64,000 nucleotides of DNA, taken from assembly GCA_046537845.1 (NCBI GenBank), contig JBKHKA010000002.1, forward strand, positions 67,152 through 131,151. Direction: 5' to 3'. Made by a program: the position numbers and the translations under genes. The notes under the pieces were generated by a model. The model did no database searches. It saw only the letters and a program-made list of their open reading frames with translations, and was not told the origin of the DNA. Each line of letters opens with the position of its first letter. Positions within the stretch are counted from its first letter, which is position 1. Positions 9,301-30,278 of the stretch are shown here, piece after piece. This DNA is from Candidatus Aenigmatarchaeota archaeon. Its GTDB lineage: Archaea > Thermoplasmatota > Thermoplasmata > Halarchaeoplasmatales > Halarchaeoplasmataceae.

Positions 9301-10264
9301 TGGATACGGCTGGGTAGAGAGCGACTCTTTAGTCAGACTGCAATCCGATCTTTCTGGTTGGAGAGGAGAGAGGATAATACTTCGATTCAGGGTCTTCACC
9401 AACACCACTGAGAAGTATTCTGACGATAATCTTCCCAAAGCCATCTTCATAGACGATGTCTGGATAACAGAAGGCGGTCTAGCAATGGATCAAGAACCTC
9501 ACTCGCTGGAATTCGACGGGGACGACGATTATGTTGACCTAGAGACTGACTTTTATGACCCTCAAACATTTTCGTGGGCGTTCTGGGTAAATCCAGATGA
9601 GCTTGATGAAGATGGAGACAATAATTATAGAAGGATTATCACATCATCGGATTCTGCTGCAAACATCATCCTTATTGAAGAAAATGGAGATGTTTCATTT
9701 AGGGTTCCTGGAGTTGAGACAGACAATTTCAAAGCAGGAAATGTGCCCTTAAACGATTGGGCTCATGTAGTATGTGTTTATGACCAATCTGATAGAATAA
9801 TCTATGTAAATGGAAATGAGGACGATAGAGAGAATATCGGCAGTGGGACAGTTGATTTTCCTCCAATTCAGTTAGTTCACCCGGGTTCTCAGACCTTTGA
9901 TGGAAACATAGACGACGTCCGCCTATACGACCGGGCTCTCACTCCGAGCGAGATAAGCGGTCTCTTCGGCGGACAGGATATCATGGACGGCTTAGTGGGC
10001 TGGTGGCCTATGGATGAAGGAGAGGGGGATCTGGCCTACGATTACTCCGGCAACAGGAACCACGGCACCATCTACGGGGCCTCGTGGAGTACGGATACGC
10101 CTTTTGCATATCTACCCACTGGAGGATCCGAGGCTGAGATATCATGGTCAGAAGGATCAGATCTAGCTCCGTTCGACATAGAACCCGTAGATATCGATGA
10201 GAAACCGATGGCGATAGACTCACAGATCGTTCCTCCAACGAAGGAAACAGATCGAGATAATTAA
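3320..10264 (+). CDS. Giant (2314 aa) surface protein with archaeal type IV pilin-like (class III) signal peptide, CARDB-like repeats, degenerate vWA-like module and C-terminal LamG/ConA-like lectin domain
   Basis: ATGA start/stop overlap with the upstream gene, with GGAGGGG a few nt upstream. The N-terminus (basic stretch, then EEG-ISEVVGSILTLTITVVIFTSVF) matches the archaeal pilin/DUF1628-type pattern. Nt ~6386-9480 are paralogous to gene 1. LamG signature HSLEFDGDDDYVDL...FDGNIDDVRLYDRALTPSEI at nt ~9490-9990. Confidence 0.9.
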   Translation: MKNQARKMKKGIKSIRKRTHSRDRPDDEEGISEVVGSILTLTITVVIFTSVFASVTQLEGPEEQPHVDFSTEYEYTAQADYINITHEGGKNLDLDDHSFIVVVDDTGGEDSRSYSIDDDEMTTTGDESSFIIGDEICIKIEDELDISPDSRMELMVRQDSNSQIIYRTILLEEDRELLDIRNARIEYKFIWREHAEPGEEISIKAEVLAPIYLRQDDFRPEELNVTASTLQDGILYHEEKEEEVKEVELEHYHKGEFRSENISVVDDVDHTSYSVKINAVHEAEGLEATPEYISLHVGKPAVRRYQADLVIGNIDYEPGSPSHNEEFRVKIQIFNRGAQNYTADWKLKDNDVLKHEDTTTFIKGPDPTVVTAEYDIMGVDYHKIEVSVNTSFEDEDGSTVEDANPENNRKTFDVYVDPNMLIVKDMTADDDHEDGLMENALTDLDFDYGVHSVESEDEYPESDHLNQYSICIWVTGSGTDDEDIAPLPPSAQDELIKFIEEDNGRLWLLGSNLNEVDFQNDFRALLGISSGIGDTDETTLHGELENPEDDEDGTYGDHTYPVYSDTTAHELSLKSGVEDENTLQHDQGNNEIVGVGYDSDTDENKRTALNSFLFESVSHPAARGNMAQEVIKWLSNLTVRTGTDVSVSSQMIEPTAPMFMDNVTINATLRNNGAEDVNVTVRALRNQGEEVLEPVLDEPWLHIPGRGGTANVEFFWEADELGTHEFLVVADYYNELDENTRENNDITYKNLEITEDVVEVNVQYSTLVVDADVSEDTNVDYENVTKHVTDSLDRLGQERGETYDYYYVEDPANDNGPTASYMRNYNAIIWVTGERGSDVGQDIVFTEEDAERLLDYFEVEERGNVIFIGENILSYLYDNDEIDPNDAQALIEYMGVDPSSIEDDDASPTHIIGENDSQLGRNLRYRLSGASDIDTFDDTSSNGDVLFTDGVDNLASVYDDGSIRNVYMGINPNRFQGPLLTGEDFETWPGGDVNLSYENVRDEFFYTNLWYLGMNDERADLRVVDYDIEVSTDHPETGRSYEVTVEIENFGYKGASTMVRVKEGDDHIGTRTVFVEGSRRDSPDSSSYFNVEPGSVTVEFTWDPMFAGNRPLRVKIDPLRLVDEIEPYGEEGTEDKIMEFDNQAVVTNPVHYFYDDMERGPGKWEHDATLMNIDGLSPLNFIGRRDLNTNVEGEWDWDMSGTTSVREEGELGKGAGVYETDDPAVHNFTNNASHTPPRSFWLPESEGDPEMRGRQPLDIVMVFDRGIESEQDYNDAVDAAEALIDFLKIDDGDDRVAIYSSQGAAINDDLTLEQSEGMSEDDIKDKIPDWKKHNPQKAILDSTSIAIEELDDVDDERANKSTSGIITFTDGLSTQDQGEKYTPAKGQGGEPNQRGPAQWYHRDADDEKGLLGIPYNIMTLTISDKVEGRHHWISAASDANVSYGILERETEKLKALYKMFVMDLIQSERGELRSIPKEELDTRNSKMTSGDSLLNNPPVIENTEFFVYTDAFTTGHLDDEVDYYDWKGGKRIPAYSDYDKLEFDIVTGKGKVGTGTDNWVWAESDTAGEKIANTVYPRDTLDELEGDYGVKGAYAKMYVETDGSSLELRINDNLVETDITGNGEYINIPLDFISNPEPFDFVIEHKDGGDVILDDLSFTYDIDYIPEGEYGQEIGTDNKYRFLTTPSVDIGSIEDLRDAELEFQNKYWLEEGTTGGFIYLWGKNENENWDWAQENRLYVEPQQSYTGNLNLERVEEESDEGGLGITDLDGEPGDGLRDAKGELPQWVFNGKSQDGTFDWRHISVDVGQYDEFIEDHDEIRAVFTLAQFGGVTKEDGWESKKGWYLDNIRFKVSSGWSSDGPGYWNLTSASQLNEMGISINEDDENYHDHTHGDEDGHYWMFTAEEGGEDRLPQGIDSSLYTRPIYLDTADQPVLTAHMKFNIDDGSGLPPDGLRVEVSDDDGKTWDSITYGVRSGWGASGDSANGEYSGESEDGGYGWVESDSLVRLQSDLSGWRGERIILRFRVFTNTTEKYSDDNLPKAIFIDDVWITEGGLAMDQEPHSLEFDGDDDYVDLETDFYDPQTFSWAFWVNPDELDEDGDNNYRRIITSSDSAANIILIEENGDVSFRVPGVETDNFKAGNVPLNDWAHVVCVYDQSDRIIYVNGNEDDRENIGSGTVDFPPIQLVHPGSQTFDGNIDDVRLYDRALTPSEISGLFGGQDIMDGLVGWWPMDEGEGDLAYDYSGNRNHGTIYGASWSTDTPFAYLPTGGSEAEISWSEGSDLAPFDIEPVDIDEKPMAIDSQIVPPTKETDRDN

Positions 10265-13373: not shown

Positions 13374-13466
13374 AGTGCTCCATCATCACGTGGTTAATTA
13401 TTGTTTTGGAGTTTTTTGAATTCTGATAAGAAAAGATTTATATGGCCCCAAAATAAAACCTTCATC

Positions 13467-13853
13467 ATGCATGAATACTCGGTGATGAGCCAGTTGATGT
13501 CCGCTCTTCTCGATGAATTGGAGGATGAGAAGGAGAATATAGGAGATATAAAAGAGGTGCGTATCGAAGTGGGAGAACTCACTTTCCTGGGGGAGATGCA
13601 GTTGAAGTTCGCCTTCGAAGCGCTCAGTAAAGAAACCATCGTGGAAGGTGCAGAGCTGAAAGTCATGAAGATAGAGTCAAAGGTCAGATGTGATGAATGC
13701 GGATACGAAGGCGGTATAGACTACACCGAGGATCCCGCTTTTCACTACAACGTTCCGGTGATCTCCTGCCCTGAGTGTGGTTCAAAACCGGAGATTATAA
13801 AAGGAAGAGAAACAAAAATAGTGGGAGTGACCGCCGTAGAGAAGGAGGAATAA
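13467..13853 (+). CDS. hypA: Hydrogenase nickel-insertion protein HypA
   Basis: Canonical MHEYS N-terminus at ATG 13467; the ORF-track start at 13401 is an upstream extension. Zn site CDECG...CPECG. Confidence 0.85.
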   Translation: MHEYSVMSQLMSALLDELEDEKENIGDIKEVRIEVGELTFLGEMQLKFAFEALSKETIVEGAELKVMKIESKVRCDECGYEGGIDYTEDPAFHYNVPVISCPECGSKPEIIKGRETKIVGVTAVEKEE

Positions 13854-13854
13854 G

Positions 13855-14946
13855 ATGGAACCAGATCTAGAACAATTCAAGTTCAGGGATGAGGAAAAAG
13901 CTAGAAAGATACTCGATAAGATCGAAGCAGCCAATAGAGAAATAAAGCTTATGCACGTCTGTGGAACACACCAAGATACTCTTGTGAGGCACGGTTTAGA
14001 GCCTCTGCTAGAAGAAGTGGGGGTGGAGATAGTTCAGGGACCGGGCTGCCCTGTCTGCGTCACCACCCAGAGGGAGATAGAAGAGATGATAAAGCTCGCG
14101 GAAGAGGGAGTGACTGTAGCCATCTTTGGTGATATGATGAACGTACCCGGGGAGAAAAGGAAGCTCTCGGATGTTAGAACGGAAGGAGGTGAGGTGAAGA
14201 TCGTTTACAGCGTGGATGATGCGGTAAAGATGGCAGAAAATAGGGATGACGAAGTGGTGTTCATCTCGGTTGGATTCGAAACCACGGTCCCTTCCACCGC
14301 CAACGTGGTAGCCAATGAACCTCCTTCTAATTTCAGTATACTCACCTGCAATCGCGTCATACCTCCCGCCCTTGAAGCCGTGATGGAGATGGGAGAAGTG
14401 GACCTTGACGGGTTGATAGAACCGGGACATGTAAGCACTATCATCGGCACTGAACCTTATCAGTTCTTATCGGAGCGGTACAACATACCTCAGGTGGTCG
14501 CCGGTTTCGAACCTCTCGATCTTTTGCTCGCGGTTTGGATGCTCCTAAAACAGGTCCGGGAAGGCAGGAGCGAGGTGGAAAATGAATATGGTAGGGTCGT
14601 GAAAGAAGAAGGTAATCTCAAAGCACAGAAGATCATAGAAGATGTCTTCAAGCCCAAGGACGTGAAGTGGAGAGGGTTTCCCGAGATACCGAAGTCCGGC
14701 TTGAAGCTGAGAAAAAAATACGGAAATTACGAAGCTAGGGAGAAATTTTCTGATATATTGGAACCTTTGGCGAACAGAGAGTTCGAGGAGCCCGAAGGAT
14801 GCCTGTGCGGCGAGGTCCTTCGAGGGATAATAAAGTCCACAGAGTGCCCTCTCTTTGGCGAGGAATGCGTCCCCAGTAATCCTGTCGGGCCTTGTATGGT
14901 CAGCAGAGAAGGGGCCTGTAATATCGAGTACAGGTACTCTGATTGA
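13855..14946 (+). CDS. hypD: Hydrogenase maturation protein HypD
   Basis: MHVCGTHQDT and GPGCPVCVT motifs. C-terminal Cys cluster CLCGEVL...CPLFGEEC...GPCMVSREGAC. Starts 2 nt after the hypA stop. Confidence 0.9.
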   Translation: MEPDLEQFKFRDEEKARKILDKIEAANREIKLMHVCGTHQDTLVRHGLEPLLEEVGVEIVQGPGCPVCVTTQREIEEMIKLAEEGVTVAIFGDMMNVPGEKRKLSDVRTEGGEVKIVYSVDDAVKMAENRDDEVVFISVGFETTVPSTANVVANEPPSNFSILTCNRVIPPALEAVMEMGEVDLDGLIEPGHVSTIIGTEPYQFLSERYNIPQVVAGFEPLDLLLAVWMLLKQVREGRSEVENEYGRVVKEEGNLKAQKIIEDVFKPKDVKWRGFPEIPKSGLKLRKKYGNYEAREKFSDILEPLANREFEEPEGCLCGEVLRGIIKSTECPLFGEECVPSNPVGPCMVSREGACNIEYRYSD

Positions 14947-15020
14947 ATCGACCGTGAGTGGACTGCTCTCTAACTTTCCGAGACCTAAGATTTAATAGAG
15001 CCCCCCCTCTACCTTTCGCC

Positions 15021-15917
15021 GTGGGACGAATCAGAGCTTTTCTAGAGATAAGCAGATGGAGGATACAACTGGTCTCTTTAGCCACTATACTATTGGGCCC
15101 TCTTTACGCAGCAGAAACCATCTCCCCTTTACTAAACGTCGACCTATTACTCTTCGGTACCTTGTTCTTCCTCACGGTCACCTTTGCCTGCAACATAAAC
15201 TGCTATCATGATAGAGATGTGGACGCGCTCAAGAAGAAGCATCTGGCCAGGTCCATAGACACTTTAGGGACTTCTACGGTAAAAAACCTGATGATCCTAG
15301 AGAGTTTGGTCGTTTTCGCCTTGATCCTATATTTCTTACTCAAAGGACACTTTACCGTAGCTCTATTATCTTCCATAGGATGGGCCTTCGGTTACCTCTA
15401 TTCCGCGCCGCCTATCCGCTTAAAGAATAAAGGTCTCTTGGGGCCTATACCGGTCAATCTAGGAGTTTACGTACTTCCTATACTAGCGGGTCATCTTCTC
15501 ATAGATCTAGACATCTCTGCAACATTTCTTCTGTTCATAGTCGGATACGTCCTGCTAAACCTCGGGATAAATCTGGTAAACGTGGCCGAAGACTACGAAG
15601 TCGATAGGAGGAGTAAGATCACCACTGCGGCACATAAATTGGGCTTGAAGAGAACGATAGGGGCCGCATCATCGACTTCTTCGATAGGTGGTGCCGTTGT
15701 TCTTATCACTCTATATACTCATGTAAAAGACTTCTATACAGGTTTATTTTTCCTGATGGCTCTGATCGCCGTCCTCTTCACCGTTGTAGACGTAACTTCT
15801 ATACTCTTTTCCAACGATCTGCACAAAGAGGCGCAAAAGAAAGGCAAAAGACTACCTATCTATTTCATCTCCACTCGATATCCGATGGTCTTTCTATTAC
15901 TTTTCGCTCTCTTGTGA
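15021..15917 (+). CDS. UbiA-family prenyltransferase, specificity unknown (paralog of the DGGGP synthase at 42692)
   Basis: Polytopic membrane protein with Asp-rich motifs NINCYHDRDVDALKK and VAEDYEVDRRSK. Start is uncertain: GTG 15021 lies ~25 nt after TATA-like tttaatag (14991-14998), and the ORF track begins at GTG 14958. Confidence 0.65.
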   Translation: MGRIRAFLEISRWRIQLVSLATILLGPLYAAETISPLLNVDLLLFGTLFFLTVTFACNINCYHDRDVDALKKKHLARSIDTLGTSTVKNLMILESLVVFALILYFLLKGHFTVALLSSIGWAFGYLYSAPPIRLKNKGLLGPIPVNLGVYVLPILAGHLLIDLDISATFLLFIVGYVLLNLGINLVNVAEDYEVDRRSKITTAAHKLGLKRTIGAASSTSSIGGAVVLITLYTHVKDFYTGLFFLMALIAVLFTVVDVTSILFSNDLHKEAQKKGKRLPIYFISTRYPMVFLLLFALL

Positions 15918-15921
15918 TCGG

Positions 15922-17004
15922 TCATTTTCGGATCAATTTTCTGTAATAATCCGGTAACTTATCCTCCGTATTGTTCAAAGCGAGGCATCCGCAGATGGGT
16001 TCTGAATATTCGGAATTCATCTCATTCCATATCTCTTTTATATCATCCTCATAGATGTTGCCCCACTCTTCACGAAGCATGTCGCAGGGAAAAACTTCTC
16101 CTCTCTCTGAGATATGTATCCTGTTGTATCCAGCGGTACAGCCCATGAACTCTTCACTGTCCATGAAAGGTCCGGATATTATCCTCGGATAATCTTTCCT
16201 CTTCCTGGCGACTTTTTGTATCTCTTTAAGATACTCCCTTTCGTCTTCCTCCAACATCTTGTCTTTCTCACTCAAGATAGGTTCGAATATCGCCACGTCG
16301 GTCACACCTTTCTTTTTAACGTATCTGAGATATCGGTCCAGATCGGATATCTTCTCGGATGTCACTACGATCCATGACCCGGTCAGCATGCCCGCCTCAC
16401 GAACATTTTCGATGCTCTTCAGACTTCGTCTATGAGCTCCTTCACATCCCATCGTCCTATCGTTCTTTTCCTCCCCATGATGCTCCAAAGCTACAAGGAC
16501 GCCCTGGCATCCGGCTTCTTTCAAGCTTTTCGCTCTTTCTTCATCCACTAGCCCCGGAGTCGACACTAGAGCTATAGAAGGATCTCCGGTAGCTCTTATC
16601 AATTCTTCAAGGTCGTCTCTAAGAAGAGGATTTCCACCGGTGAATAGGAACTGAAAGGTCCCTAATTCTTTCAGTCCTTCTATAGCGTCTAAAACCACTT
16701 CTGTATCAAGATCTTCTCTTTCTCCCGGAGTATTGCAGTGCCAGCAGTTGTTCTCGCATCCGCTGGTCAACGATATATTGACTATCTCCGGTACTGGTTT
16801 ACCCTTAGAAGCTTTTATCTGTGCGTCTAAAAAGGTATCGAATGCCTCAGAAGGAAAGAGTGGAAGGTAAATAGACAATACTTTTTTACCCTCTATCTTT
16901 TGAAGATTGTCCGACCTACCCAGACTGAAGTAATGTCTGAAGATGAAGAGCTTGAATCGGAATGGAAGAGCTCTCACTTTTTTATTCAGGAGCAGTTTAA
17001 ACAT
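15922..17004 (-). CDS. Radical SAM enzyme with SPASM/twitch-like C-terminal Cys cluster
   Basis: CxxxCxxC as SGCENNCWHCN. GGNPLL glycine-rich SAM motif. C-terminal CTAGYNRIHISERGEVFPCDML...EPICGCLAL. Last gene of the minus-strand operon, 4-nt gap from the upstream gene. Confidence 0.85.
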   Translation of the reverse strand: MFKLLLNKKVRALPFRFKLFIFRHYFSLGRSDNLQKIEGKKVLSIYLPLFPSEAFDTFLDAQIKASKGKPVPEIVNISLTSGCENNCWHCNTPGEREDLDTEVVLDAIEGLKELGTFQFLFTGGNPLLRDDLEELIRATGDPSIALVSTPGLVDEERAKSLKEAGCQGVLVALEHHGEEKNDRTMGCEGAHRRSLKSIENVREAGMLTGSWIVVTSEKISDLDRYLRYVKKKGVTDVAIFEPILSEKDKMLEEDEREYLKEIQKVARKRKDYPRIISGPFMDSEEFMGCTAGYNRIHISERGEVFPCDMLREEWGNIYEDDIKEIWNEMNSEYSEPICGCLALNNTEDKLPDYYRKLIRK

Positions 17005-17008
17005 GATC

Positions 17009-18178
17009 TTAGACCTCTAAAGTAAGATCCTTTCCATGGATCAACTTTTCTATTGTTGCGTCTACATCACCCAATTCTTCTCTTATCTCTCCCAAGGTGT
17101 GTTCTCCGTCACATAGTTGAAGTAAACTTACATTTCTCTCGCTGTACTCCAGTTCACATTCTCTGAAGACGATCTTACCATCTTCGATCTCGTAATCGGC
17201 CAGCAGCTTTGGACGATAATGGTCTTCTAACTCGGGGATCTCGAAATAAGTGGGTTCTCCATCCTGATGTATCGGATAGAACGCAAACACCGGAGCCTCT
17301 TGGCCGAACTTTTTACTGTAAACGTACCTGTAACTCTCCAAACCGGCGGTGGTACCTTCTCCTACCGCCTTGGCGATGGAAAACGGCGGTCCCGCGACAT
17401 CTCCCGCTGCGAACAGTCCTTCCTTCACTCTACAGCGTTTATCCGTCTTTATGAAACCTCTCTCGTCTTTTTCACAGTCCACTAGGTCTGCGGTGATAGC
17501 GCCTAACTGGTAAGATTCGAAGTCGATCAAGACGTGATCTCCGTGGATCTCATCATCTTCAGTAACTACAACGATCCCATCGTCTTTCTCTTCATAGCCT
17601 CGTATATTCTTTCCGTGGTCGATGACTTTTTTGATCTCCATACGTCCTTGATTTATCTTCTCAAAGAGCTCCAAAGTCCTATCTAACTTTTCCGTGCCCA
17701 CGAATATGATGGTTTTACCCTCTTCCGTTTCACACAGCTCTTCAAAATGATCTTCCATGAACCGGTATCCCTTCAAGGTGCCGAACAATTTACCTCCAAA
17801 ATGATCACTTTCGTTCCAAGTCATCTTCATCCCCGTGGCGATGATCACCGCTAGAGAGGTATATTCTCCTTTATCCGTTACCACGGTGAAGGTTTCGCCA
17901 TCATCTTTAACCTTCAACACTTTTTCTTTTTTGACCGGTATAGAGTAATCTTCTATGTCGCTCATCAGTTTGTCTATGATCTCACCCTTTTCATGACTCC
18001 AGCCGTCTCCGGTCATCCTCACCTTCGTCCAATCCGCAAGGCCGCCGGGAGACGTGTTCGTTATCATCATAACGCTGGAAGAGTGCAGATTATAGGTACG
18101 TACTCTTCTCGCTCTCACCGCGGCCGAGAGGCCTGCTGGTCCTCCTCCTACAACGATAACGTCGCTATCGTACATCAT
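17009..18178 (-). CDS. TrxR-fold FAD-dependent oxidoreductase fused to a C-terminal PqqD-like (RRE-type) domain
   Basis: N-terminal dinucleotide motif DVIVVGGGPAGLSAA. C-terminal FAD motif GLFAAGDVAG. No CxxC redox pair and no second GxGxxG by eye. The last ~60 aa, ...NVSLLQLCDGEHTLGEIREELG...IEKLIHGKDL, resemble the PqqD consensus. Confidence 0.75.
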   Translation of the reverse strand: MMYDSDVIVVGGGPAGLSAAVRARRVRTYNLHSSSVMMITNTSPGGLADWTKVRMTGDGWSHEKGEIIDKLMSDIEDYSIPVKKEKVLKVKDDGETFTVVTDKGEYTSLAVIIATGMKMTWNESDHFGGKLFGTLKGYRFMEDHFEELCETEEGKTIIFVGTEKLDRTLELFEKINQGRMEIKKVIDHGKNIRGYEEKDDGIVVVTEDDEIHGDHVLIDFESYQLGAITADLVDCEKDERGFIKTDKRCRVKEGLFAAGDVAGPPFSIAKAVGEGTTAGLESYRYVYSKKFGQEAPVFAFYPIHQDGEPTYFEIPELEDHYRPKLLADYEIEDGKIVFRECELEYSERNVSLLQLCDGEHTLGEIREELGDVDATIEKLIHGKDLTLEV

Positions 18179-18638
18179 TTTCCCCTGAACTGATGTTGGA
18201 CTTTATTATATTTACCATCCGTGGAGGAAAAGCCTCGGAAGAAAGTTCTTCCCCGTCCTCTAAAACTACTAAACCTTTCTTCGGATACACCTCTAACGTA
18301 TCTTTCTCACTCACTTTATCTATTACACCTTCAACTTCCAAAGGCCAGATACCTCTGTTAACGCAGTTCCTGAACATGTAGCGGGAAAAACTTTCTGCTA
18401 TGACCACTCTTATACCGGACAACTGGATCGCCCATGCACCGCTCTCTCTACCGGATCCCATACCAATGTATCTTCCAGCGACTATGACGTCATCTTCTTC
18501 AACGGTCTCGTAAAACCCAGGCTCAATACCGGCCATCAGTCCTTTAACCACTCTCTCAGGGTCTAGTGAAAAATACTTCCCGGGATGTATCTCATCCAAG
18601 GTGATATCGTCCCCAAAGACTCTAGCTCTACATCTCAT
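18165..18638 (-). CDS. Aconitase-family small subunit (LeuD/HacB-like)
   Basis: GMGSGRESGAWAIQLSGIRVVIAESFSRYMFRNCVNRGIWPLE matches the LeuD-type swivel-domain pattern. ATGA overlap with the upstream large subunit. Confidence 0.8.
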   Translation of the reverse strand: MRCRARVFGDDITLDEIHPGKYFSLDPERVVKGLMAGIEPGFYETVEEDDVIVAGRYIGMGSGRESGAWAIQLSGIRVVIAESFSRYMFRNCVNRGIWPLEVEGVIDKVSEKDTLEVYPKKGLVVLEDGEELSSEAFPPRMVNIIKSNISSGENDVR

Positions 18639-19819
18639 CTTCCCACCTCCTGTGGGATAACACCCTCAAGAGCGGAAAGAGCACACACCTCTGCACCTGC
18701 AAGATACACTTCGCCTTCGCCCATCCTTCCGGGATAATTTCTGTTCTGAGTGGTAATACAGGTTTCCCCTTCAGCGAGTAAACCCTTGTCTATGCCGGGA
18801 CAGGGCCCGCAGCTCGGGTTCAACATAACAGCGCCAGCTTTCACCAAAGTCTCTATGATCCCTTCTTTCAGAGCTTTCTCATGTATGCGTTTAGAAGCCG
18901 GAGTTACAAGGAGCCTTACGTCTGGGTGTACCTTTTCATCTTCCAATATTTCAGCTGTCTTTCTCAGATCGCTCAACCTCCCGCTGGCACAGGAACCGAT
19001 GAAGATTTGATCTATGCTTTTACCCGAGACTTTAGAAAGCGTTTTTACGTTATACGGTTTGTGTGGTACCGCTACCAATGGTTCTTTGACCGATATATCT
19101 ACTCTTTCCACGCACTGTTCTTCTTCCGTTAAAGGTATATCTACATCACTCTTCATACCGAAATTTTCAAGATATCTTCTCGTTATCTCGTCCGGCGGAA
19201 AAAAAGCAACTTTTGCTCCACTTTCGGCGGCCATGTTGGCTATTGTTAACCTATCATCCATATCTAAACCGACTTTATCTACGAACTCTATTGTCTTATA
19301 ATTGGCATCGTATCTTATCTTCTTCAACATCGAGAGAGCTATGTCAGTTCCGTCTTTTCCTTCTGAGATCTCAACACGAACGGTCTCCGGGACTCTGAAC
19401 CACGTCTTTCCCCTCTTAAGGATCTCAACCGTATCACTGGAACCGAAGCCTATACCGAAAGATCCAAGGGCACCATAGGTGGTTGAATGACTATCTATCC
19501 CCGCTACAAGTTCTCCAGGTAACGCTCTACCTTCACACATCACCTGGTGACAGATCCCTTGGAATTCGACGTGATCCATGATACCTTTCTCATCCACGAA
19601 CTCTCTCAACTGCTTGACAAAATTTGCTCTTTCTACAGTACTCGGAGGACAAAAATGATCGACCACGCTTGTCACTTTATCTGGATCCCATATCTCTTCT
19701 CCTTCCATATCGTCGAAGATCAAAGGAGCGTTACCGTCGTGGAGCATCACCCTGTCCACTTCTCTTACCACGTACTCTCCTTCCTCTCCTCCGAAAAAAC
19801 GTTCCGATACAGTGGTCAT
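18635..19819 (-). CDS. Aconitase-family large subunit (LeuC/HacA-like)
   Basis: GIDSHSTTYGALG, IGSCASGRLSDL and NPSCGPCPG motifs, supplying three Fe-S Cys ligands. ATGA overlap with the upstream synthase. Confidence 0.85.
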   Translation of the reverse strand: MTTVSERFFGGEEGEYVVREVDRVMLHDGNAPLIFDDMEGEEIWDPDKVTSVVDHFCPPSTVERANFVKQLREFVDEKGIMDHVEFQGICHQVMCEGRALPGELVAGIDSHSTTYGALGSFGIGFGSSDTVEILKRGKTWFRVPETVRVEISEGKDGTDIALSMLKKIRYDANYKTIEFVDKVGLDMDDRLTIANMAAESGAKVAFFPPDEITRRYLENFGMKSDVDIPLTEEEQCVERVDISVKEPLVAVPHKPYNVKTLSKVSGKSIDQIFIGSCASGRLSDLRKTAEILEDEKVHPDVRLLVTPASKRIHEKALKEGIIETLVKAGAVMLNPSCGPCPGIDKGLLAEGETCITTQNRNYPGRMGEGEVYLAGAEVCALSALEGVIPQEVGR

Positions 19820-21051
19820 CCTTCACCTTTTACCTCAGAGACTAACTCCCAAAACCTGTCTTCAGAAAAGCCGAGCATCTCTTTGTTATACTCGTCCTTC
19901 TTTTCTAGGAATTCGTCTATCCGACGCTGTCTATGGATGGTCTTCTCTTCTTCTATCCTTTCAAGGACTTCCTCTATCTGATCGTCAGTCAAAGAGACAT
20001 CTTTCGAGTCCAAGAGTTCCTTAACGTTTGTAGGACCGGAATGTTTTCCAAGCACGAACTCGCGCTCTCTGCCCACCTCTTCGGGGGATATAGGCTCATA
20101 GGACTCAGTATGTGAAAGGACGCCGGAAACGTGGACTTCGCTTTCGTGTCTATAAGAATTGTATCCCGAAATAGGTTTCTGTGGGGAGAGATAGAGGCCG
20201 GACTTCCTTTCCACCATCTTCGAGAGTTCGTAAAGCAGCGTGGTATCCACACCCGTATCGGTATCGAACAACTTTTCTATTATCATCACTATCTCCTCTA
20301 AAGCAGGGTTGCCCGAACTATCTCCAAGAGAATTTACGGTCACTGTAGGATAATTTACACCCGCTTGGACAGCTGCGACAGTATTCGCTACCGCCAGACC
20401 GAAATCGTTGTGACAGTGAACGCCCCATCCTTTTCCTCCCACTTCATCTATGATTTTAGAGGTGAAAGAATACATAGCCTCTGGAGTGATGGAACTTGCG
20501 GTATCGCATATTATCAAACGGTCGGCACCTCTATCTCTCACTTCGGTCAGTAATTCGATGACGAAATCTAGATCCGAACGAGTGGTATCTTCGCTTATGA
20601 AGTCGAAGTTTACTCCTCGCTCGTTCACATGATCTACGGCTTCGAGGACCTCTTCGAAACATTCTTCTTCGGTCATGTCCTGTTTGTAGTGAAGGTGAAA
20701 TTTACTTGTAGTAGAAAACATGTAGAGGTTTTTCACCCCGAGATCAATAGCTGCGTCTATATCTTCTTTTTTACACCTTACCGTAGCTCCCACCTCGGCA
20801 TCTAAACCACAGGAAACTAGCGCTTCTATGGCATCTCTTTCCTTTTGGGACATCATCGGAAAACCGGCGTCTATGACTGAAATACCGGCCTTGTCCATCA
20901 ATTCGGCCAGCTCCATCTTGTCTTCTAGATCGAATATAACACCAGGACTCTGTTCTCCGCCTCTCAGCGTTTCGTCCCATATGTGTACCTTTTCGGGGAT
21001 GCGTTCTTTCTTCATGAAGTCGGTGTTGTTGTCTTCCATCAATCGATGCAT
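19816..21051 (-). CDS. 2-isopropylmalate / citramalate / homocitrate synthase family enzyme (HMGL-like domain, no LeuA regulatory domain evident)
   Basis: IWDETLRGGEQSPG (variant of DTTLRDGEQ) and HCHNDFGLAVANTVAAVQAG. I place the start at ATG 21051 (MHRLMEDNN), ~29 nt after TATA-like tttttatattt. The ORF track extends to 21168. Confidence 0.8.
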   Translation of the reverse strand: MHRLMEDNNTDFMKKERIPEKVHIWDETLRGGEQSPGVIFDLEDKMELAELMDKAGISVIDAGFPMMSQKERDAIEALVSCGLDAEVGATVRCKKEDIDAAIDLGVKNLYMFSTTSKFHLHYKQDMTEEECFEEVLEAVDHVNERGVNFDFISEDTTRSDLDFVIELLTEVRDRGADRLIICDTASSITPEAMYSFTSKIIDEVGGKGWGVHCHNDFGLAVANTVAAVQAGVNYPTVTVNSLGDSSGNPALEEIVMIIEKLFDTDTGVDTTLLYELSKMVERKSGLYLSPQKPISGYNSYRHESEVHVSGVLSHTESYEPISPEEVGREREFVLGKHSGPTNVKELLDSKDVSLTDDQIEEVLERIEEEKTIHRQRRIDEFLEKKDEYNKEMLGFSEDRFWELVSEVKGEG

Positions 21052-21195
21052 ACTCACACCGATTGAGCATCTGAGATGAAATATAAAAAGGTTGCTGGAT
21101 TTTGTCAGATTGGTCGCTTTCTTGACTTGAGAAGAAAACAACATGTTTTTATATCCTTTAGTTTTCAATCCATACGGAGTTCAATTTAGATAACC

Positions 21196-22327: not shown

Positions 22328-22867
22328 ATGAAAGAAATAATCTCAAAAGCGATGAGTTCAGGGCTGGACTTCTCACAGAAGGGCGTCTTAAAATCATTTT
22401 TATACAAGATGGACCTGGACGAGGAGACCTACGATCGAGTTTACGTGAATCTAAAAAATAACTCTCTAGAGGATAAAGTTTCGAAGGTGGATTTTGAAGA
22501 CAGGATCGTTCTACTGCCTCAATGCTTGAGAGATCCAGATAACTGTGAAGCGGAGATGGAGGAATTCGGGTACAAGTGTAAAAATTGTGGTAATTGTGTT
22601 ATCGATGATATAAAATCTAAAGCCGAGGACCTTAATTATGAGAAGGTCTACATAGTTCCGGGGTCTAGCATGGCAAAGAACGTCTTGAAGAAAAAGGATC
22701 CCAGTGCCGTTATAGCCGTGGCATGTCATTCTGAATTGGTGGAGGGGTTCGAGGCCAGCCATGTTTACAGTATACCTATCCAGGGAGTACCCTTATTAAG
22801 ATCAGGATGTGTGAACACTGAGGTCGATCTTGAAAAAGTCGAAGAAAAACTACAGATGAAGAATTGA
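22328..22867 (+). CDS. DUF116-family protein
   Basis: LLPQCLRDPDNCEAE...YKCKNCGNCVIDD...VIAVACHSELVEG pattern characteristic of DUF116. Confidence 0.65.
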   Translation: MKEIISKAMSSGLDFSQKGVLKSFLYKMDLDEETYDRVYVNLKNNSLEDKVSKVDFEDRIVLLPQCLRDPDNCEAEMEEFGYKCKNCGNCVIDDIKSKAEDLNYEKVYIVPGSSMAKNVLKKKDPSAVIAVACHSELVEGFEASHVYSIPIQGVPLLRSGCVNTEVDLEKVEEKLQMKN

Positions 22868-22887
22868 GTCTTATTTTGGGTGAATAT

Positions 22888-23583
22888 ATGAGCGATGAGA
22901 TAGCTATATTTGGCATCGGCGGAGGATCAGATACTGGAAAAACGGAGATGATATGTGAATTGGTGGAAGAGCTTTCTAAACGAGGCTATAAACCAGCTAC
23001 GATCAAGCATACGCAGGGAGATTTCAGCATCGATGAAGAAGGAAAAGATACCTGGAGACATTCTGAAGCCGGCGCGAAGCTTGTAGTTTTTTCTACCCCC
23101 GCTGAGACTGATTTTCTTGTGCAGAGACCTATGAGTATGGAAGAGACCTTGATGAAGATAGGCGCTTTAGATAGATACGATGTTGTTTTGGTTGAGGGGA
23201 TGAAAAATGAAGATATTCCCAAGATCGTTCTAGATGAAGAAAAAAGTGAAGATGGAAAACTGTTGAGGGAATCCTTAGAGCGGATCGAGGAAGAGATGAT
23301 CTTAAAGGAGCTTCCCGGGATCGATTGTCGACGATGTGGATTCGAAAGCTGTGAGGAGATGGCAGGTGCGATAGTTAAGGGAGAAAAGGCTATAGACGAT
23401 TGTGAAGTGATGGGGACAGAAAAAAGAGAGGGTGTCGAGCTATCAGTGAACGGAGAAAAGCTTCCGCTGACCAAGTTTCCTTCAAAACTTCTCAAAAATA
23501 CGATAAAAGGCATGGTAACTTCCCTGAAGGGAGTGGAAGATGAAGAAGAGATAGATGAGATCGAAATTAAAATTTCAGAGTGA
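22888..23583 (+). CDS. mobB: MobB-like molybdopterin-guanine dinucleotide biosynthesis adapter fused to a Cys-rich putative Fe-S domain
   Basis: P-loop GIGGGSDTGKTEM and PATIKHTQGDF...DTWRHSEAGA (MobB). C-terminal GIDCRRCGFESCEEMAGAIVKGEKAIDDC resembles the RnfB-type Fe-S domain. An alternative TTG start at 22864 overlaps the upstream stop. Confidence 0.7.
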   Translation: MSDEIAIFGIGGGSDTGKTEMICELVEELSKRGYKPATIKHTQGDFSIDEEGKDTWRHSEAGAKLVVFSTPAETDFLVQRPMSMEETLMKIGALDRYDVVLVEGMKNEDIPKIVLDEEKSEDGKLLRESLERIEEEMILKELPGIDCRRCGFESCEEMAGAIVKGEKAIDDCEVMGTEKREGVELSVNGEKLPLTKFPSKLLKNTIKGMVTSLKGVEDEEEIDEIEIKISE

Positions 23584-24068: not shown

Positions 24069-24180
24069 TCTCAGGAACCACTGGGATGGGATCAACGGAA
24101 CATTTATTAGGTCCTAAAGTATGTGAAATCCAAAATTATTGAAGCAAAAGAATTTCTAGAATAAAATGGAGGAAAAGAAT

Positions 24181-26064
24181 ATGGCTAGCTCAGGACATTG
24201 GGGAAAATTATTGAGAGTAAATCTGAACGATGGCAGTGCAGAAACGGAGAGTTTATCCGAAGAGTTCCTACGAAAATTTATCGGTGGAGCAGGATTCACC
24301 ACAAAGATCCTTTACGACGAAGTAGGAAAAGATGTGGACCCTCTCTCGGAAGATAACAAACTGATCATATCTCCTGGCCTTCTTCTAGGGCTCAAAGTGC
24401 CAACTGGTTCAAAGACTTCTTTTGGATTCAAGAGCCCCCAAACAGGAGGATACGGAAAGTCACTTGTAGGTGGGAAGATCGGCGATCAATTGAAGAAAGC
24501 CGGATATGACGTTTTGATTATAGAAGGTAAGGCAGAAGAACCCTCAGTACTGGTCATCGAAGATGAGGATGTGAGAGTAGAAAAAGCTGATGATATCTGG
24601 GGAAAAGACACCCATAAAGCGGGAGAGATGATCAAAGAAAAGTACGGCGAGGTAGAGACCGCTGTTATCGGCCCTGCTGGAGAAAAACTTTCCAAGATAT
24701 CGATAATAGAATGTAATGAGAGACAGGCAGCTAGAGGCGGTATAGGCGCTGTGTTAGGGTCTAAAAACTTGAAAGGGATCGGTATAAAAGGATCAAAGGA
24801 TTATCCCATACACGATAAAGAAAGATTGGACGACTTGATCTCCAAGTTCAGAAAGGAGAGTCAGGAACAAGGTAAAACCGACATGGAGTACGGTTCCGGC
24901 GAAGCTCTGCATCCGTTGAACGTGGAGATAGGCGCATTCCCTGTGAAGAATTGGGAAGCGGGCTATTTCAAAGACGCCTATGAAAAGTTAGAAGATCCTA
25001 TGGAAGGCCGCATAGATATCGATCCAAGAAGATGGACCTCTGAATATAGAGATGGTAGGAGGCCGTGTCCTTATTGTACGAAGCCTTGCAGCCAGTATTT
25101 TGTGGCGGAAGACACTCCTTATGGAGACATAGGCATAGATGGACCGGAGTACGAAACACAGTATTCCTTTGGCGGCTGTACAGGTGTTGACGATGTAGAA
25201 GCTGTAGCCAAGGCCAATGAGATCTGCGATAAGTTGGGCCTAGATACTATCTCTGCAGGAGTCACGGTTGCATGGGCTATGGAAGCTTACGAGAAAGGAC
25301 TACTAGAATCCGACATAGATCTAGAGTTCGGTAACGCCGAAGCGATGATAGAAGCCGTTGAAATGATGGGCAAAAAAGAAGGAGAACTCGGCGAGATGTT
25401 GAGCAACGGTGTTGTAGAGGCCGCTGAAAAACTCGGAAAAGGATCCGAAAAATTTGCGATCCACGTAAAAGGTATGGAGCCCCCGGGATACGAAGCTAGA
25501 GGGATGTTCGGTATGGGCTTGGCTCTGGCGGTGGCGCCGAGAGGTGCCGACCACTTGACATCATGCGCTTACGCTTTGGACTACGGTGGATCATTCTGGT
25601 ACTTTGATGATTACAAGAGAAGAGAAGTGGTTTCTAAGGGCTTCCCGCTTAAGATGATGGAAGACCTGATGATGGTCTTCGATATGACCGGGATCTGTAA
25701 ATTCTCTAGAGGTATATATCTTGATAAAAACCAGATCGGCCTGGTACAAGCAGTGACAGGTTGGGATGTGAGCAACGGCGAACTATTAGAAGCCGGGGAA
25801 AGAGCTCACAACGTTGCGAAGGCATACAATGTGAGAGAAGGATTCACCAGAGAAGACGATATACTGCCGGAAAGGATGTACCGAGAAGAAGTCCCCTACG
25901 GTCCGAACGAAGGTGCGAAGATACCAAGAAGAGAATTCGAGGAGGCGCTGGATAGGTATTATACCGCTAGAGGATGGAGTTTAGAAGGAGTCCCTACGAA
26001 GGGTAAATTGGAAAATCTAGACCTGCCTAAGGTGTCAGAGGAGATCGGAGTTCTCAAGCAATAA
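24181..26064 (+). CDS. aor: Tungsten-type aldehyde:ferredoxin oxidoreductase (AOR family), paralog 1
   Basis: Full-length AOR architecture with RRPCPYCTKPCSQYFVAED (4Fe-4S Cys), DGPEYET, NEICDKLGLDTISAG, GADHLTS and GICKFSRG. GGAGGA lies 7 nt before ATG 24181, and the N-terminus then aligns with paralog 2. Confidence 0.9.
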   Translation: MASSGHWGKLLRVNLNDGSAETESLSEEFLRKFIGGAGFTTKILYDEVGKDVDPLSEDNKLIISPGLLLGLKVPTGSKTSFGFKSPQTGGYGKSLVGGKIGDQLKKAGYDVLIIEGKAEEPSVLVIEDEDVRVEKADDIWGKDTHKAGEMIKEKYGEVETAVIGPAGEKLSKISIIECNERQAARGGIGAVLGSKNLKGIGIKGSKDYPIHDKERLDDLISKFRKESQEQGKTDMEYGSGEALHPLNVEIGAFPVKNWEAGYFKDAYEKLEDPMEGRIDIDPRRWTSEYRDGRRPCPYCTKPCSQYFVAEDTPYGDIGIDGPEYETQYSFGGCTGVDDVEAVAKANEICDKLGLDTISAGVTVAWAMEAYEKGLLESDIDLEFGNAEAMIEAVEMMGKKEGELGEMLSNGVVEAAEKLGKGSEKFAIHVKGMEPPGYEARGMFGMGLALAVAPRGADHLTSCAYALDYGGSFWYFDDYKRREVVSKGFPLKMMEDLMMVFDMTGICKFSRGIYLDKNQIGLVQAVTGWDVSNGELLEAGERAHNVAKAYNVREGFTREDDILPERMYREEVPYGPNEGAKIPRREFEEALDRYYTARGWSLEGVPTKGKLENLDLPKVSEEIGVLKQ

Positions 26065-28296: not shown

Positions 28297-28308
28297 AAGA
28301 TCGGGGAG

Positions 28309-29973: not shown

Positions 29974-30278
29974 TTTTTATATCCTCCGTTTTTGATTAAA
30001 GAAGTTGCCTATTCAATCCTAATGACACGTCTATATTTAATGTTTATCGAGAAGGATATTAATATAATATATAATAATCCTTTTATTTAAACTGAAAAAC
30101 CTATAGTGAAATTTTAAAACCTATTTAAAATGGAAGAGCCACTGGCAAGGATCGAACCCAATATCATACAGCCGTATTAATATATTTTGCGATACCAGTC
30201 GCACTCGTTCTAGGCCTTTTACTTGTTCCTAAAGTATTTGTAGCGGCTTATCGATCTGGTTCTGAAGTTGATGAGTCT

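What the first reader, a model, noticed from the sequence alone, without database searches (positions are those of the whole stretch)
15922..21051. Operon coupling a LeuA/LeuC/LeuD-like module to a PqqD-fused flavoprotein and a radical SAM/SPASM enzyme
Five minus-strand genes are packed with start/stop overlaps or a 4-nt gap, which argues for co-translation. The junctions are 19816-19819, 18635-18638, 18165-18178 and the gap 17005-17008. The first three genes are a 2-oxoacid chain-elongation set: an HMGL-type synthase plus aconitase-type large and small subunits. No LeuB-type dehydrogenase is present. The last two are a TrxR-fold FAD protein with a C-terminal PqqD-like domain and a radical SAM enzyme with a SPASM/twitch Cys cluster. 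PqqD-like domains with SPASM radical SAM enzymes normally mark peptide (RiPP) or peptide-derived cofactor maturation. I see no short precursor ORF in or beside the operon. I do not recognise this combination as a described pathway. It could make a modified 2-oxoacid-derived cofactor, or the peptide substrate may be encoded elsewhere.
Basis: partly seen in the sequence, partly recalled or inferred. Interest (0 to 1): 0.72.

Follow-up and report, generated by a model that had tools for sequence, protein, structure and literature searches.

The report
Uncharacterised oxoacid, radical-SAM, prenyltransferase gene cluster
A tightly packed, widely conserved but undescribed archaeal gene cluster joins a leucine-type carbon-chain-building module to an unusual flavoprotein, a radical SAM enzyme and a neighbouring prenyltransferase, so it most likely makes an unknown membrane-anchored metabolite, not a modified peptide.

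Summary
The five overlapping minus-strand genes are real, and every domain call holds except one. The PqqD-like label rests only on weak, concordant evidence.

A divergent UbiA-family prenyltransferase (15021-15917, +) converges on the radical SAM gene. It does so in 13 listed loci (about 11 distinct contigs), down to 35% identity. In another lineage a geranylgeranyl-reductase-family gene takes that place.

Anaerobic bacteria carry a sister cluster: B12-rSAM, HMGL, LeuC, LeuD, the same flavoprotein, LuxE, LuxC and a U32 protein.

The radical SAM enzyme has four C-terminal cysteines, enough for one auxiliary cluster (twitch-like) and not a full SPASM. The flavoprotein has a thioredoxin-reductase fold but lacks the CxxC and the NAD(P)H-binding loop. 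No precursor peptide is conserved in or beside any locus. No equivalog model or paper covers the set.

Best reading (confidence about 0.4): a 2-oxoacid-derived acid is tailored by the flavoprotein/rSAM pair and attached to a polyprenyl chain. The RiPP reading is unlikely. The product is unknown.

The parts
19816..21051 (-). HMGL-type 2-oxoacid:acetyl-CoA Claisen synthase (LeuA/CimA/HCS family, short form without a regulatory domain). It is atypical: the usual metal-ligand Asp/Glu in LR[DE]GEQ is Gly (LRGGEQ), with a compensating DETLRGG versus the bacterial DGTLREG.
   Evidence: Pfam HMGL-like 214 bits plus HCS_D2. NCBIfam matches are subfamily-level only and below cut-off (TIGR02090 384.6 vs 484.75). 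PDB alignments to 6ktq and 3rmj show the substitution. Orthologue alignment.
18635..19819 (-). Aconitase-family dehydratase/isomerase, large subunit (LeuC/HacA type). The three Fe-S cysteines are present (GSCASGR, SCGPC).
   Evidence: Pfam Aconitase 241 bits. TIGR02086 scores 416.5 against a cut-off of 410.15; no equivalog is reached. Sequence.
18165..18638 (-). Aconitase-family small subunit (LeuD type). Its substrate-recognition loop is YFS(L), unlike YLVY (IPMI) or YLRT (homoaconitase).
   Evidence: Aconitase_C. TIGR02087 scores 119.6 against a cut-off of 108.95. Alignments to 3vba and 2pkp. Orthologue alignment.
17303..18178 (-). FAD-binding thioredoxin-reductase-fold portion of the flavoprotein. 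The GGGPAG and AAGD FAD motifs are kept. There is no CxxC, and the second Rossmann P-loop is degenerate (VGTEKL).
   Evidence: Pfam Pyr_redox_2. AF2 model pLDDT 90. Foldseek matches TrxR/FFTR at E 1e-17 and about 21% identity. Family alignment.
17009..17302 (-). [quoted passage not shown] Includes the stop codon.
   Evidence: AF2 model pLDDT 84. Weak Foldseek list enriched in RRE proteins. Best PDB sequence match is PqqD 5sxy at E 0.44. Family fragment P0250 passes Pfam PqqD. Only 27 representative hits among 1.84 billion proteins.
15922..17004 (-). Radical SAM enzyme with CxxxCxxC (C83/C87/C90), a conserved basic N-terminal extension of about 70 aa, and a truncated SPASM/twitch-like C-terminus (C289, C307, C340, C342).
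   Evidence: Pfam Radical_SAM and SPASM. The best NCBIfam matches (AhbD, GeoRSP, NirJ) are far below cut-off. Cysteine conservation.
15021..15917 (+). Divergent UbiA-superfamily prenyltransferase, convergent with the rSAM gene and 4 nt from its stop. Asp-rich motifs are NCYHDRDVD and EDYEVD. The probable start is the GTG at 15021 (298 aa, as in the homologues); the longest ORF starts at 14958.
   Evidence: Pfam UbiA. The best NCBIfam matches (PRK12875, ChlG/BchG) are all below cut-off. Narrow family found on the same contigs as the rSAM and FAD genes. Synteny. Sequence.
21081..21087 (-). TTTATAT, an archaeal TATA-box-like element about 30 nt upstream of the first start codon. It is the candidate operon promoter.
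   Evidence: Read directly from the sequence. Not tested experimentally.

Best explanation
This is a biosynthetic cassette for an unknown small, membrane-anchored metabolite (a lipid head-group or lipid-soluble cofactor). It is not a peptide pathway.

Proposed steps:
1. The HMGL-type synthase condenses acetyl-CoA with an unidentified 2-oxoacid to give a 2-substituted malate.
2. The LeuC/LeuD-type Fe-S enzyme dehydrates or isomerises that product.
3. The FAD protein and the one-auxiliary-cluster radical SAM enzyme tailor the acid by oxidation/reduction and a radical step. The FAD protein has a TrxR fold but no dithiol and no NAD(P)H site. Its RRE-like winged-helix domain is proposed to dock it to a protein partner, plausibly the conserved N-terminal extension of the rSAM.
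4. The convergent ChlG/DGGGPS-like UbiA enzyme attaches a polyprenyl chain through O-prenylation of a hydroxyl or carboxylate.

The bacterial sister cluster would make the analogous compound. There a B12-rSAM replaces the twitch rSAM, and LuxE/LuxC (acyl activation and reduction) plus a U32 protein replace the prenyl branch.

Shown: gene content, domain identities, the missing catalytic motifs and the conserved synteny.
Inferred: every chemical step, the order of steps, the substrate and the product.
For: - The order HMGL-LeuC-LeuD-FAD-rSAM is conserved with overlapping stops and starts in about 10 independent archaeal contigs, down to 35-40% identity.
- UbiA sits convergent directly after the rSAM gene in 13 listed loci, about 11 distinct contigs. 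The UbiA family is narrow and shares at least 14 contig lengths with the rSAM/FAD hits.
- In the L092 lineage the FAD-rSAM pair is followed by a geranylgeranyl-reductase-family gene (TIGR02032 195.6 bits; cut-off 158.8). L100 has a GGR-like ORF nearby.
- The bacterial sister clusters keep the core and add LuxE/LuxC/U32/B12-rSAM.
- The leu-like proteins reach only subfamily models. They carry non-canonical active-site or specificity motifs: LRGGEQ, GDSSGN and HESEVHVSG in the synthase, and a YFS loop in the small subunit. This argues for a dedicated substrate, not Leu/Ile/Lys synthesis.
- The UbiA Asp-rich motif N-C-Y-H-D-R-D-V-D resembles the N-D-Y/W-x-D-R-E-I-D of DGGGP and chlorophyll synthases (own knowledge), and the best NCBIfam matches are ChlG/BchG.
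- No conserved small ORF is present.
- The rSAM has only one auxiliary-cluster cysteine set, as in small-molecule twitch enzymes such as BtrN (own knowledge).
Against: - No product, substrate or transcript data exist, so every step is guilt by association.
- UbiA is on the opposite strand and is therefore not co-transcribed. In one complete Thermoplasmata chromosome (L094) the 41%-identical UbiA is not next to the cluster.
- The bacterial clusters contain no isoprenoid gene, so the 'lipid anchor' parallel (LuxE/LuxC as tail supplier) is speculation.
- An RRE-like domain is a recognised hallmark of peptide pathways.
- The role of the flavoprotein without an obvious electron donor is unexplained.
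- A LeuB-type enzyme encoded elsewhere could complete ordinary chain elongation.
Confidence: 0.4

Rival explanations
1. This is a RiPP or peptide-derived cofactor pathway. The RRE/PqqD-like domain presents a precursor peptide, encoded elsewhere in the genome, to the radical SAM enzyme. The leu-like enzymes supply or modify a side-chain building block.
For: [quoted passage not shown]
- Its best PDB sequence match is PqqD.
- The weak Foldseek list includes McbB, PqqD, NisB/MibB/MadB and ThcOx.
- One family fragment passes the Pfam PqqD threshold.
- The rSAM gives weak PqqE and sactipeptide-maturase-type matches.
Against: - No conserved small ORF lies in or next to any of the independent loci.
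- The window protein itself gives no PqqD hit at E<=10. Most family members hit generic winged-helix families equally weakly.
- No Foldseek match reaches E<=1e-3.
- The rSAM lacks the seven-Cys SPASM set typical of PqqE, MftC and the sactisynthases.
- The conserved neighbours are prenyl enzymes or LuxE/LuxC. None is a peptidase, transporter or leader-processing gene.
Confidence: 0.12
2. This is an isoprenoid-lipid tailoring system. The FAD protein and the radical SAM enzyme act directly on prenyl or phytanyl chains of membrane lipids, in the manner of GGR, Tes, Grs or GMGT synthase. The leu-like enzymes make an unusual branched precursor or head group.
For: - UbiA and GGR-family genes are the conserved neighbours.
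- The rSAM has a conserved, basic, amphipathic-looking N-terminal extension that could sit on a membrane.
- There are weak matches to the tetraether synthase Tes model (34-56 bits).
Against: - The Tes matches cover only the generic rSAM core and lie far below the cut-off of 450 bits.
- The bacterial sister clusters have no isoprenoid genes.
- This reading gives no role to a 2-oxoacid module that is translationally coupled to the FAD gene.
Confidence: 0.2
3. These are ordinary amino-acid biosynthesis genes (a leuA/cimA-leuC-leuD set for Leu/Ile, or an AAA-type Lys route) that merely sit next to an unrelated FAD/rSAM pair. LeuB is encoded elsewhere.
For: - LeuC and LeuD pass the archaeal subfamily models.
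- Archaeal 2-oxoacid elongation genes are often scattered, with the dehydrogenase encoded apart, as for aksA/D/E/F in Methanocaldococcus (own knowledge).
- L091 and L092 show that the FAD gene can occur without leu-like neighbours.
Against: - The same five-gene order, with start/stop overlaps, is kept in archaea and in bacteria at 35-40% identity.
- The synthase falls below every equivalog and even below its subfamily cut-off, and it has an altered metal-ligand motif.
- The small-subunit specificity loop matches neither the IPMI nor the HACN type.
Confidence: 0.08
4. The flavoprotein is not a substrate-modifying enzyme. It is a dedicated redox partner, tethered by its winged-helix domain, that delivers electrons to or removes them from the Fe-S clusters of the partner radical SAM enzyme.
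For: - The closest structures include ferredoxin-dependent flavin thioredoxin reductase and TrxR-type ferredoxin-NADP reductases (6gna, 3ab1, 2zbw, 8c3m).
- The flavoprotein always co-occurs with an rSAM enzyme, of twitch type in archaea and B12 type in bacteria.
- PqqD is known to bind PqqE as well as PqqA (PMC10906245 abstract).
Against: - The NAD(P)H-binding loop is lost, which leaves no obvious electron source.
- In bacteria its immediate, overlapping neighbour is LuxE and not the rSAM gene.
- A set of invariant polar residues (N122, E123, T134, S222, K290) suggests a substrate pocket.
Confidence: 0.15

Closest known systems
LeuA/LeuCD(/LeuB) and AksA/AksD/AksE(/AksF) 2-oxoacid chain-elongation modules (leucine, coenzyme B, homocitrate/lysine, homophenylalanine HphA/CD)
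   Same: It has an HMGL-type synthase followed by a two-subunit aconitase-family isomerase. The order and translational coupling match leu operons.
   Different: - No beta-decarboxylating dehydrogenase is in the operon or anywhere in the 64 kb.
- The synthase has LRGGEQ in place of LR[DE]GEQ.
- The small-subunit loop is YFS and not YLVY or YLRT.
- No equivalog model is reached.
- The module is fused operonically to FAD and rSAM genes.
PqqD/PqqE (PQQ) and MftB/MftC (mycofactocin): an RRE protein plus a SPASM radical SAM enzyme
   Same: A small beta3-alpha3 winged-helix domain is encoded next to a radical SAM enzyme of the MoaA/NifB/PqqE class. PqqD is the best, though non-significant, PDB sequence match.
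   Different: - No precursor peptide gene is present.
- The domain is fused to a TrxR-fold flavoprotein and not to the rSAM or PqqC.
- The rSAM has four, not seven, C-terminal cysteines.
- Pfam PqqD is not matched by the window protein.
Twitch-domain radical SAM enzymes acting on small molecules (BtrN, MoaA)
   Same: It has one rSAM cluster plus one auxiliary-cluster cysteine set on a beta-hairpin (Cx17C with GxxxxC) and a later Cys pair. Archaeal MoaA is among the NCBIfam matches (69-86 bits).
   Different: Sequence similarity is low and far below all cut-offs. It has a family-specific N-terminal extension of about 70 aa. Its chemistry is unknown.
Low-molecular-weight thioredoxin reductase and ferredoxin-dependent flavin thioredoxin reductase (FFTR)
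   Same: It has the two-domain TrxR fold with conserved FAD motifs. The best structural matches are 2q7v and 6gna.
   Different: - There is no redox-active CxxC.
- The NADPH P-loop is degenerate.
- It carries an extra C-terminal winged-helix domain.
- TIGR01292 scores 74.9 bits against a cut-off of 343.
ChlG/BchG chlorophyll synthases and DGGGP synthase (the O-prenylating branch of the UbiA superfamily)
   Same: It has the UbiA fold with both Asp-rich motifs. The best NCBIfam matches are ChlG/BchG and PRK12875. The motif is N-x-Y-x-D-R-x-x-D.
   Different: Scores of 66-97 bits fall well short of cut-offs of 205-313. It forms a narrow separate clade of about 49 clusters. The acceptor substrate is unknown.

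Membership tests
LeuA/LeuCD/LeuB-type 2-oxoacid chain-elongation pathway | HMGL-type acetyl-CoA:2-oxoacid synthase with the post-HMGL (HCS_D2) domain | tested here: met
   PF00682 scores 214 bits and PF22617 scores 64 bits.
LeuA/LeuCD/LeuB-type 2-oxoacid chain-elongation pathway | Canonical divalent-metal ligand set (Asp/Glu of LR[DE]GEQ plus the HxH motif) | tested here: not met
   HxH (HCHND) is present. The acidic ligand is Gly in the window protein and in all archaeal orthologues (LRGGEQ/LRGGDQ). The bacterial orthologues keep LREGEQ.
LeuA/LeuCD/LeuB-type 2-oxoacid chain-elongation pathway | Aconitase-family large and small subunits | tested here: met
   TIGR02086 scores 416.5 (cut-off 410.15) and TIGR02087 scores 119.6 (cut-off 108.95). 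Three cluster cysteines are present.
LeuA/LeuCD/LeuB-type 2-oxoacid chain-elongation pathway | Beta-decarboxylating dehydrogenase (LeuB/AksF, Iso_dh) that completes each elongation round | tested here: not met
   None is present in the operon or its flanks. The PROSITE-type Iso_dh signature is absent from all six frames of the window. None is found in the related loci. One could still be encoded elsewhere in the genome.
PqqD / RiPP recognition element (RRE) | Match to Pfam PF05402 at the gathering threshold | tested here: not met
   The window C-terminus gives 0 families at E<=10. Two of 27 family members hit at E about 0.01. One family fragment, P0250, does pass (26.8 bits against 23.4).
PqqD / RiPP recognition element (RRE) | [quoted passage not shown] | tested here: met
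   AF2 models give E322-325, E330-332, E335-337, E342-344, H347-355, H362-369 and H373-381. These are predicted structures, not solved ones.
PqqD / RiPP recognition element (RRE) | Significant structural similarity to solved RRE domains | tested here: inconclusive
   No Foldseek PDB match reaches E<=1e-3. McbB, PqqD (E 0.65), MadB/NisB/MibB and ThcOx appear among the weak matches.
PqqD / RiPP recognition element (RRE) | A cognate precursor peptide gene | tested here: not met
   No conserved small ORF lies in or beside six independent loci. A remote gene cannot be excluded.
SPASM-domain radical SAM enzymes | CxxxCxxC radical SAM motif and a PF13186 match | tested here: met
   C83/C87/C90 are invariant. 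PF13186 scores 30.7 bits against a cut-off of 21.5.
SPASM-domain radical SAM enzymes | Seven-cysteine motif that binds two auxiliary [4Fe-4S] clusters | tested here: not met
   Only C289, C307, C340 and C342 are present. The first three are invariant across the family. This fits a single auxiliary cluster (twitch-like).
Thioredoxin reductase (low-Mr TrxR) | TrxR two-domain FAD fold | tested here: met
   Foldseek finds 2q7v, 6gna and 3cty at E about 1e-17. The model has pLDDT 90.
Thioredoxin reductase (low-Mr TrxR) | Redox-active CxxC and an NADPH-binding GxGxxA/G loop | tested here: not met
   The sequence has no CxxC. The second Rossmann loop reads VGTEKL, with family consensus VGSxKL. TIGR01292 scores 74.9 bits against a cut-off of 343.
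UbiA prenyltransferase superfamily | PF01040 match and two Asp-rich motifs | tested here: met
   PF01040 scores 73 bits. The motifs are NCYHDRDVD and EDYEVD.
UbiA prenyltransferase superfamily | Assignment to a characterised subfamily (DGGGPS, ChlG, MenA, UbiA, CtaB) | tested here: not met
   All NCBIfam matches are far below their cut-offs in four orthologues.

The most novel reading that the evidence does not exclude
The cluster encodes a previously unknown class of lipid-anchored metabolite derived from an organic acid. It would be a new membrane cofactor or lipid head group made in two parallel versions across the lipid divide. In Thermoplasmatota-like archaea the tail would be isoprenoid, supplied by UbiA and GGR. 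In anaerobic bacteria it would be derived from a fatty acyl or aldehyde group, supplied by LuxE/LuxC. An RRE-type domain would be recruited outside peptide biosynthesis to couple a dithiol-less TrxR-fold flavoenzyme to a radical SAM partner.
Probability: 0.25. Interest if true: 0.8.

Novelty: new variant of a known kind. Interest (0 to 1): 0.62.

Why it matters
Every enzyme here belongs to a well-known superfamily, but the combination is conserved, confined to uncultured lineages, and covered by no curated model or paper I could find.

If the product is a new prenylated cofactor or lipid, it would add a pathway to archaeal membrane biochemistry. It would also give a biosynthetic marker for unexplained lipids in hypersaline and anoxic sediments.

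It would further show three enzymological points:
- An RRE/PqqD-type domain can work outside RiPP pathways.
- A TrxR scaffold can be stripped of both its dithiol and its NADPH site and take on a new job.
- An IPMS-type synthase can relocate its metal ligand.

The archaeal and bacterial sister clusters provide a natural comparison for dissecting which genes make the core and which make the anchor.

Tried and rejected
1. The genome-contig scan with the whole flavoprotein alignment was swamped by generic thioredoxin reductases.
I repeated it with the rSAM alignment.
3. The all-against-all small-ORF comparison was dominated by shadow ORFs inside the conserved genes. Direct inspection of the intergenic regions found nothing conserved. 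The 60-aa ORF upstream of the B12-rSAM in L003 has no counterpart in L004 or L006.
4. A phosphonate pathway (FrbC/Pms-type synthase plus a PhpK-type B12-rSAM) was considered. I rejected it because no PEP mutase lies in any flank and the PhpK matches are generic.
5. A tetrapyrrole pathway was considered, since AhbD/NirJ and ChlG are the best matches. I rejected it as a reading because these are the usual nearest models for any SPASM-class rSAM or divergent UbiA, and they score 5-10 times below their cut-offs.
6. A link to the adjacent HypA/HypD, AFOR or MobB genes was rejected. None of these recurs in the other loci.
7. More distant rSAM homologues of about 30% identity (Promethearchaeota and others) are not in such clusters, so I excluded them from the family.
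8. Sigma-70 promoter and intrinsic-terminator scans showed no excess over shuffled sequence. These scans are of little value for an archaeon.
9. Five literature searches found no description of the cluster.

Full report
**Observation.** Their junctions are two ATGA overlaps (19816-19819, 18635-18638), a 14-nt overlap (18165-18178) and a 4-nt gap (17005-17008). GGTGA/GGAGG-type motifs lie ahead of the internal starts. The longest ORF of the first gene reaches a TTG at 21168. Bacterial-style promoter and terminator scans show nothing above shuffled background inside the unit. This test is weak for an archaeon.

**Domains.** Pfam confirms HMGL-like plus HCS_D2, Aconitase, Aconitase_C, Pyr_redox_2, Radical_SAM and SPASM. 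NCBIfam places LeuC and LeuD only in the broad archaeal subfamilies. The synthase falls below even its subfamily cut-off. The rSAM's best matches (AhbD 93 bits against 500; GeoRSP; NirJ) and the flavoprotein's best match (TrxR 75 bits against 343) lie far below threshold. None of the five proteins is therefore an orthologue of a characterised enzyme.

**The leu-like half is atypical.**
- Alignments to solved homocitrate and isopropylmalate synthases show that the acidic metal ligand of LR[D/E]GEQ is glycine here (LRGGEQ).
- All archaeal orthologues share this. They carry DETLRGG where the bacterial orthologues have DGTLREG, which looks like a relocation of the carboxylate.
- Two further signature motifs also differ: GDSSGN instead of GERAGN, and HESEVHVSG instead of HESGIHVDG.
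- The small-subunit substrate-recognition loop is YFS(L). It is YLVY in the Methanocaldococcus isopropylmalate/citramalate isomerase (3vba) and YLRT in its homoaconitase (2pkp).
- No LeuB-type gene lies in the operon, its flanks or any frame of the 64-kb window.

**The flavoprotein.** An AlphaFold model built on 50 family members is confident (pLDDT 90). It matches thioredoxin reductases and the ferredoxin-dependent FFTR at E about 1e-17 and about 21% identity. The FAD motifs are invariant. There is no CxxC, and the second Rossmann loop reads VGTEKL (family consensus VGSxKL), so NAD(P)H binding is unlikely. A set of invariant polar residues (N122, E123, T134, S222, K290) suggests a new substrate site.

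**The C-terminal domain.** Pfam gives nothing for the last 96 residues, even at E<=10.
1. The modelled domain (pLDDT 84) has beta-strands followed by three helices. [quoted passage not shown]
2. Foldseek against the PDB finds nothing at E<=1e-3. Its weak list contains McbB, PqqD itself, NisB/MibB/MadB and ThcOx, all of which are RRE-bearing proteins.
3. A profile of the domain ranks PqqD (5sxy) first among 177,635 PDB sequences, although at E 0.44. One family fragment (P0250) passes the Pfam PqqD gathering score.

Other family members hit generic winged-helix families just as weakly. The domain is rare. A full HMMER pass over 1.84 billion representatives returns only 27 proteins at E<=1e-3, nearly all of them C-termini of this same flavoprotein family.

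**The radical SAM enzyme.** It has the canonical CxxxCxxC. Only four cysteines lie in the C-terminal region (C289, C307, C340, C342), and the first three are invariant in the family. This fits one auxiliary cluster, as in twitch enzymes, and not the seven-cysteine SPASM set of PqqE or MftC. A basic N-terminal extension of about 70 residues is conserved and specific to the family.

**Context, the main new result.** Immediately beyond the rSAM stop, and converging on it, lies a UbiA-family prenyltransferase. Neighbourhoods of flavoprotein and rSAM homologues, plus a metagenome scan with an rSAM profile, were compared by tblastn.
- HMGL-LeuC-LeuD-FAD-rSAM recurs in the same order in about 10 independent archaeal contigs, at 35-93% identity.
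- UbiA converges on the rSAM gene in 13 listed loci, about 11 distinct contigs, often with overlapping stop codons. Twice a small MBL-fold gene lies in between.
- The UbiA family is narrow, with about 49 clusters. It shares at least 14 contig lengths with the rSAM and flavoprotein hits.
- Its best models are ChlG/BchG and an uncharacterised archaeal prenyltransferase, all well below cut-off.
- In one lineage (L092/L102) the FAD-rSAM pair lacks leu-like neighbours. In L092 it is followed instead by a geranylgeranyl-reductase-family gene that passes its model cut-off. L100 has a GGR-like ORF nearby.
- In one complete Thermoplasmata chromosome a 41%-identical UbiA is unlinked, so linkage is frequent but not universal.

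**The bacterial sister cluster.** At 31-37% identity the flavoprotein occurs in anaerobic bacteria, including a Thermodesulfobacteriota MAG. The arrangement there is B12-rSAM, HMGL, LeuC, LeuD, flavoprotein, LuxE, LuxC and a U32 protein. In L091 the flavoprotein, LuxE, LuxC, two U32 genes and a B12-rSAM occur without leu-like genes. The B12-rSAM is nearest to the uncharacterised Ta0216 family. The flavoprotein therefore belongs to the tailoring half. The leu-like module is a frequent but separable feeder.

**No peptide.** The only non-coding space by the window's operon is 144 nt upstream of the first gene. Six-frame inspection of the equivalent regions in six independent loci shows no conserved small ORF.

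**Interpretation.** The best-supported reading is a small-molecule pathway. A dedicated 2-oxoacid is condensed with acetyl-CoA and then dehydrated or isomerised. The product is tailored by the flavoprotein and the single-auxiliary-cluster rSAM. In archaea it is then joined to a polyprenyl chain by the UbiA enzyme, probably through oxygen, given that enzyme's affinity with the ChlG/DGGGPS branch. Only the gene content, motifs and synteny are shown; all the chemistry is inferred. I put this at about 0.4.

The rivals are:
- direct modification of isoprenoid chains (0.2)
- the flavoprotein as a tethered redox partner of the rSAM (0.15)
- fortuitous adjacency of ordinary amino-acid genes (0.08)

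**Organism.** The 100%-identical proteins come from a MAG labelled Aenigmatarchaeota, while 57-74%-identical relatives are labelled Thermoplasmata or Thermoplasmatota. The proteins are acidic, with pI 4.6-5.3. Several metagenome contigs carry SL_*KL_010_SED names, which I read as soda-lake sediment but could not verify. The window is clearly archaeal (pilin N-terminal domain, AFORs, HypA/D).

**Novelty.** All parts belong to known superfamilies. The conserved combination, the RRE-fused TrxR-fold protein without a dithiol, and the altered synthase are undescribed in the curated models and in the literature I could search. I rate it a new variant of a known kind, namely a 2-oxoacid-fed, radical-SAM-tailored biosynthetic cluster. 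It has a real chance of encoding a new class of membrane metabolite.

Noticed in passing
window 69-3323 (+) and 3320-10264 (+): Two very large overlapping ORFs. One is a 1084-aa VWA-domain protein. The other is a 2314-aa protein with an archaeal type IV pilin N-terminal domain, CARDB and Laminin_G_3. They are probably a surface or adhesion pair.
   Followed up: partly
window 28001-30000; ORF 28309-29973 (-): This stretch has extreme strand composition (GC skew -0.43, AT skew -0.48). It encodes a 554-aa protein with only weak coiled-coil-type Pfam matches (RNase_Y_N, FBF1). It is likely a low-complexity charged repeat protein.
   Followed up: partly
window 24166-26064 (+) and 48943-50847 (+): Two aldehyde:ferredoxin oxidoreductase (tungsten/molybdopterin) paralogues lie in one 64-kb window. 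A MobB plus Fe-S fusion (22864-23583) and DUF116 lie nearby.
   Followed up: no
window 13401-14946 (+): HypA and HypD hydrogenase-maturation genes sit directly upstream of the UbiA gene on the same strand. This adjacency is not seen in any related locus, so it is probably incidental.
   Followed up: yes
window 19816-21051; L001, L087, L003, L004 orthologues: There is an apparent compensatory swap in the synthase active-site motif. The archaeal form is D-E-T-L-R-G-G-E-Q and the bacterial form is D-G-T-L-R-E-G-E-Q, so the acidic residue and the glycine exchange positions.
   Followed up: partly
L099 4955-5521 (-) and L104 569-1135 (-): A 188-aa metallo-beta-lactamase-fold gene (HEHDDH motif) is inserted between the rSAM and UbiA genes in two related loci, on the UbiA strand.
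   Followed up: no
L091 16970-21212: In the bacterial variant without leu-like genes, the flavoprotein-LuxE-LuxC-U32-U32-B12-rSAM run is followed by two DUF2229 genes and a BcrAD_BadFG activator-type gene. That gene set resembles 2-hydroxyacyl-CoA-dehydratase or PlsA-type systems (the resemblance is from memory).
   Followed up: no
L100 5500-5661 (+): A 53-aa Cys-rich (CxxC...CxxC) ORF lies just after the rSAM gene. It occurs in this locus only and is not conserved elsewhere.
   Followed up: partly
window-wide / P0001, P0121, P0265: The source MAG is labelled Candidatus Aenigmatarchaeota at NCBI. Its closest relatives for three different proteins are labelled Thermoplasmata or Thermoplasmatota, so the label may be wrong.
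   Followed up: no
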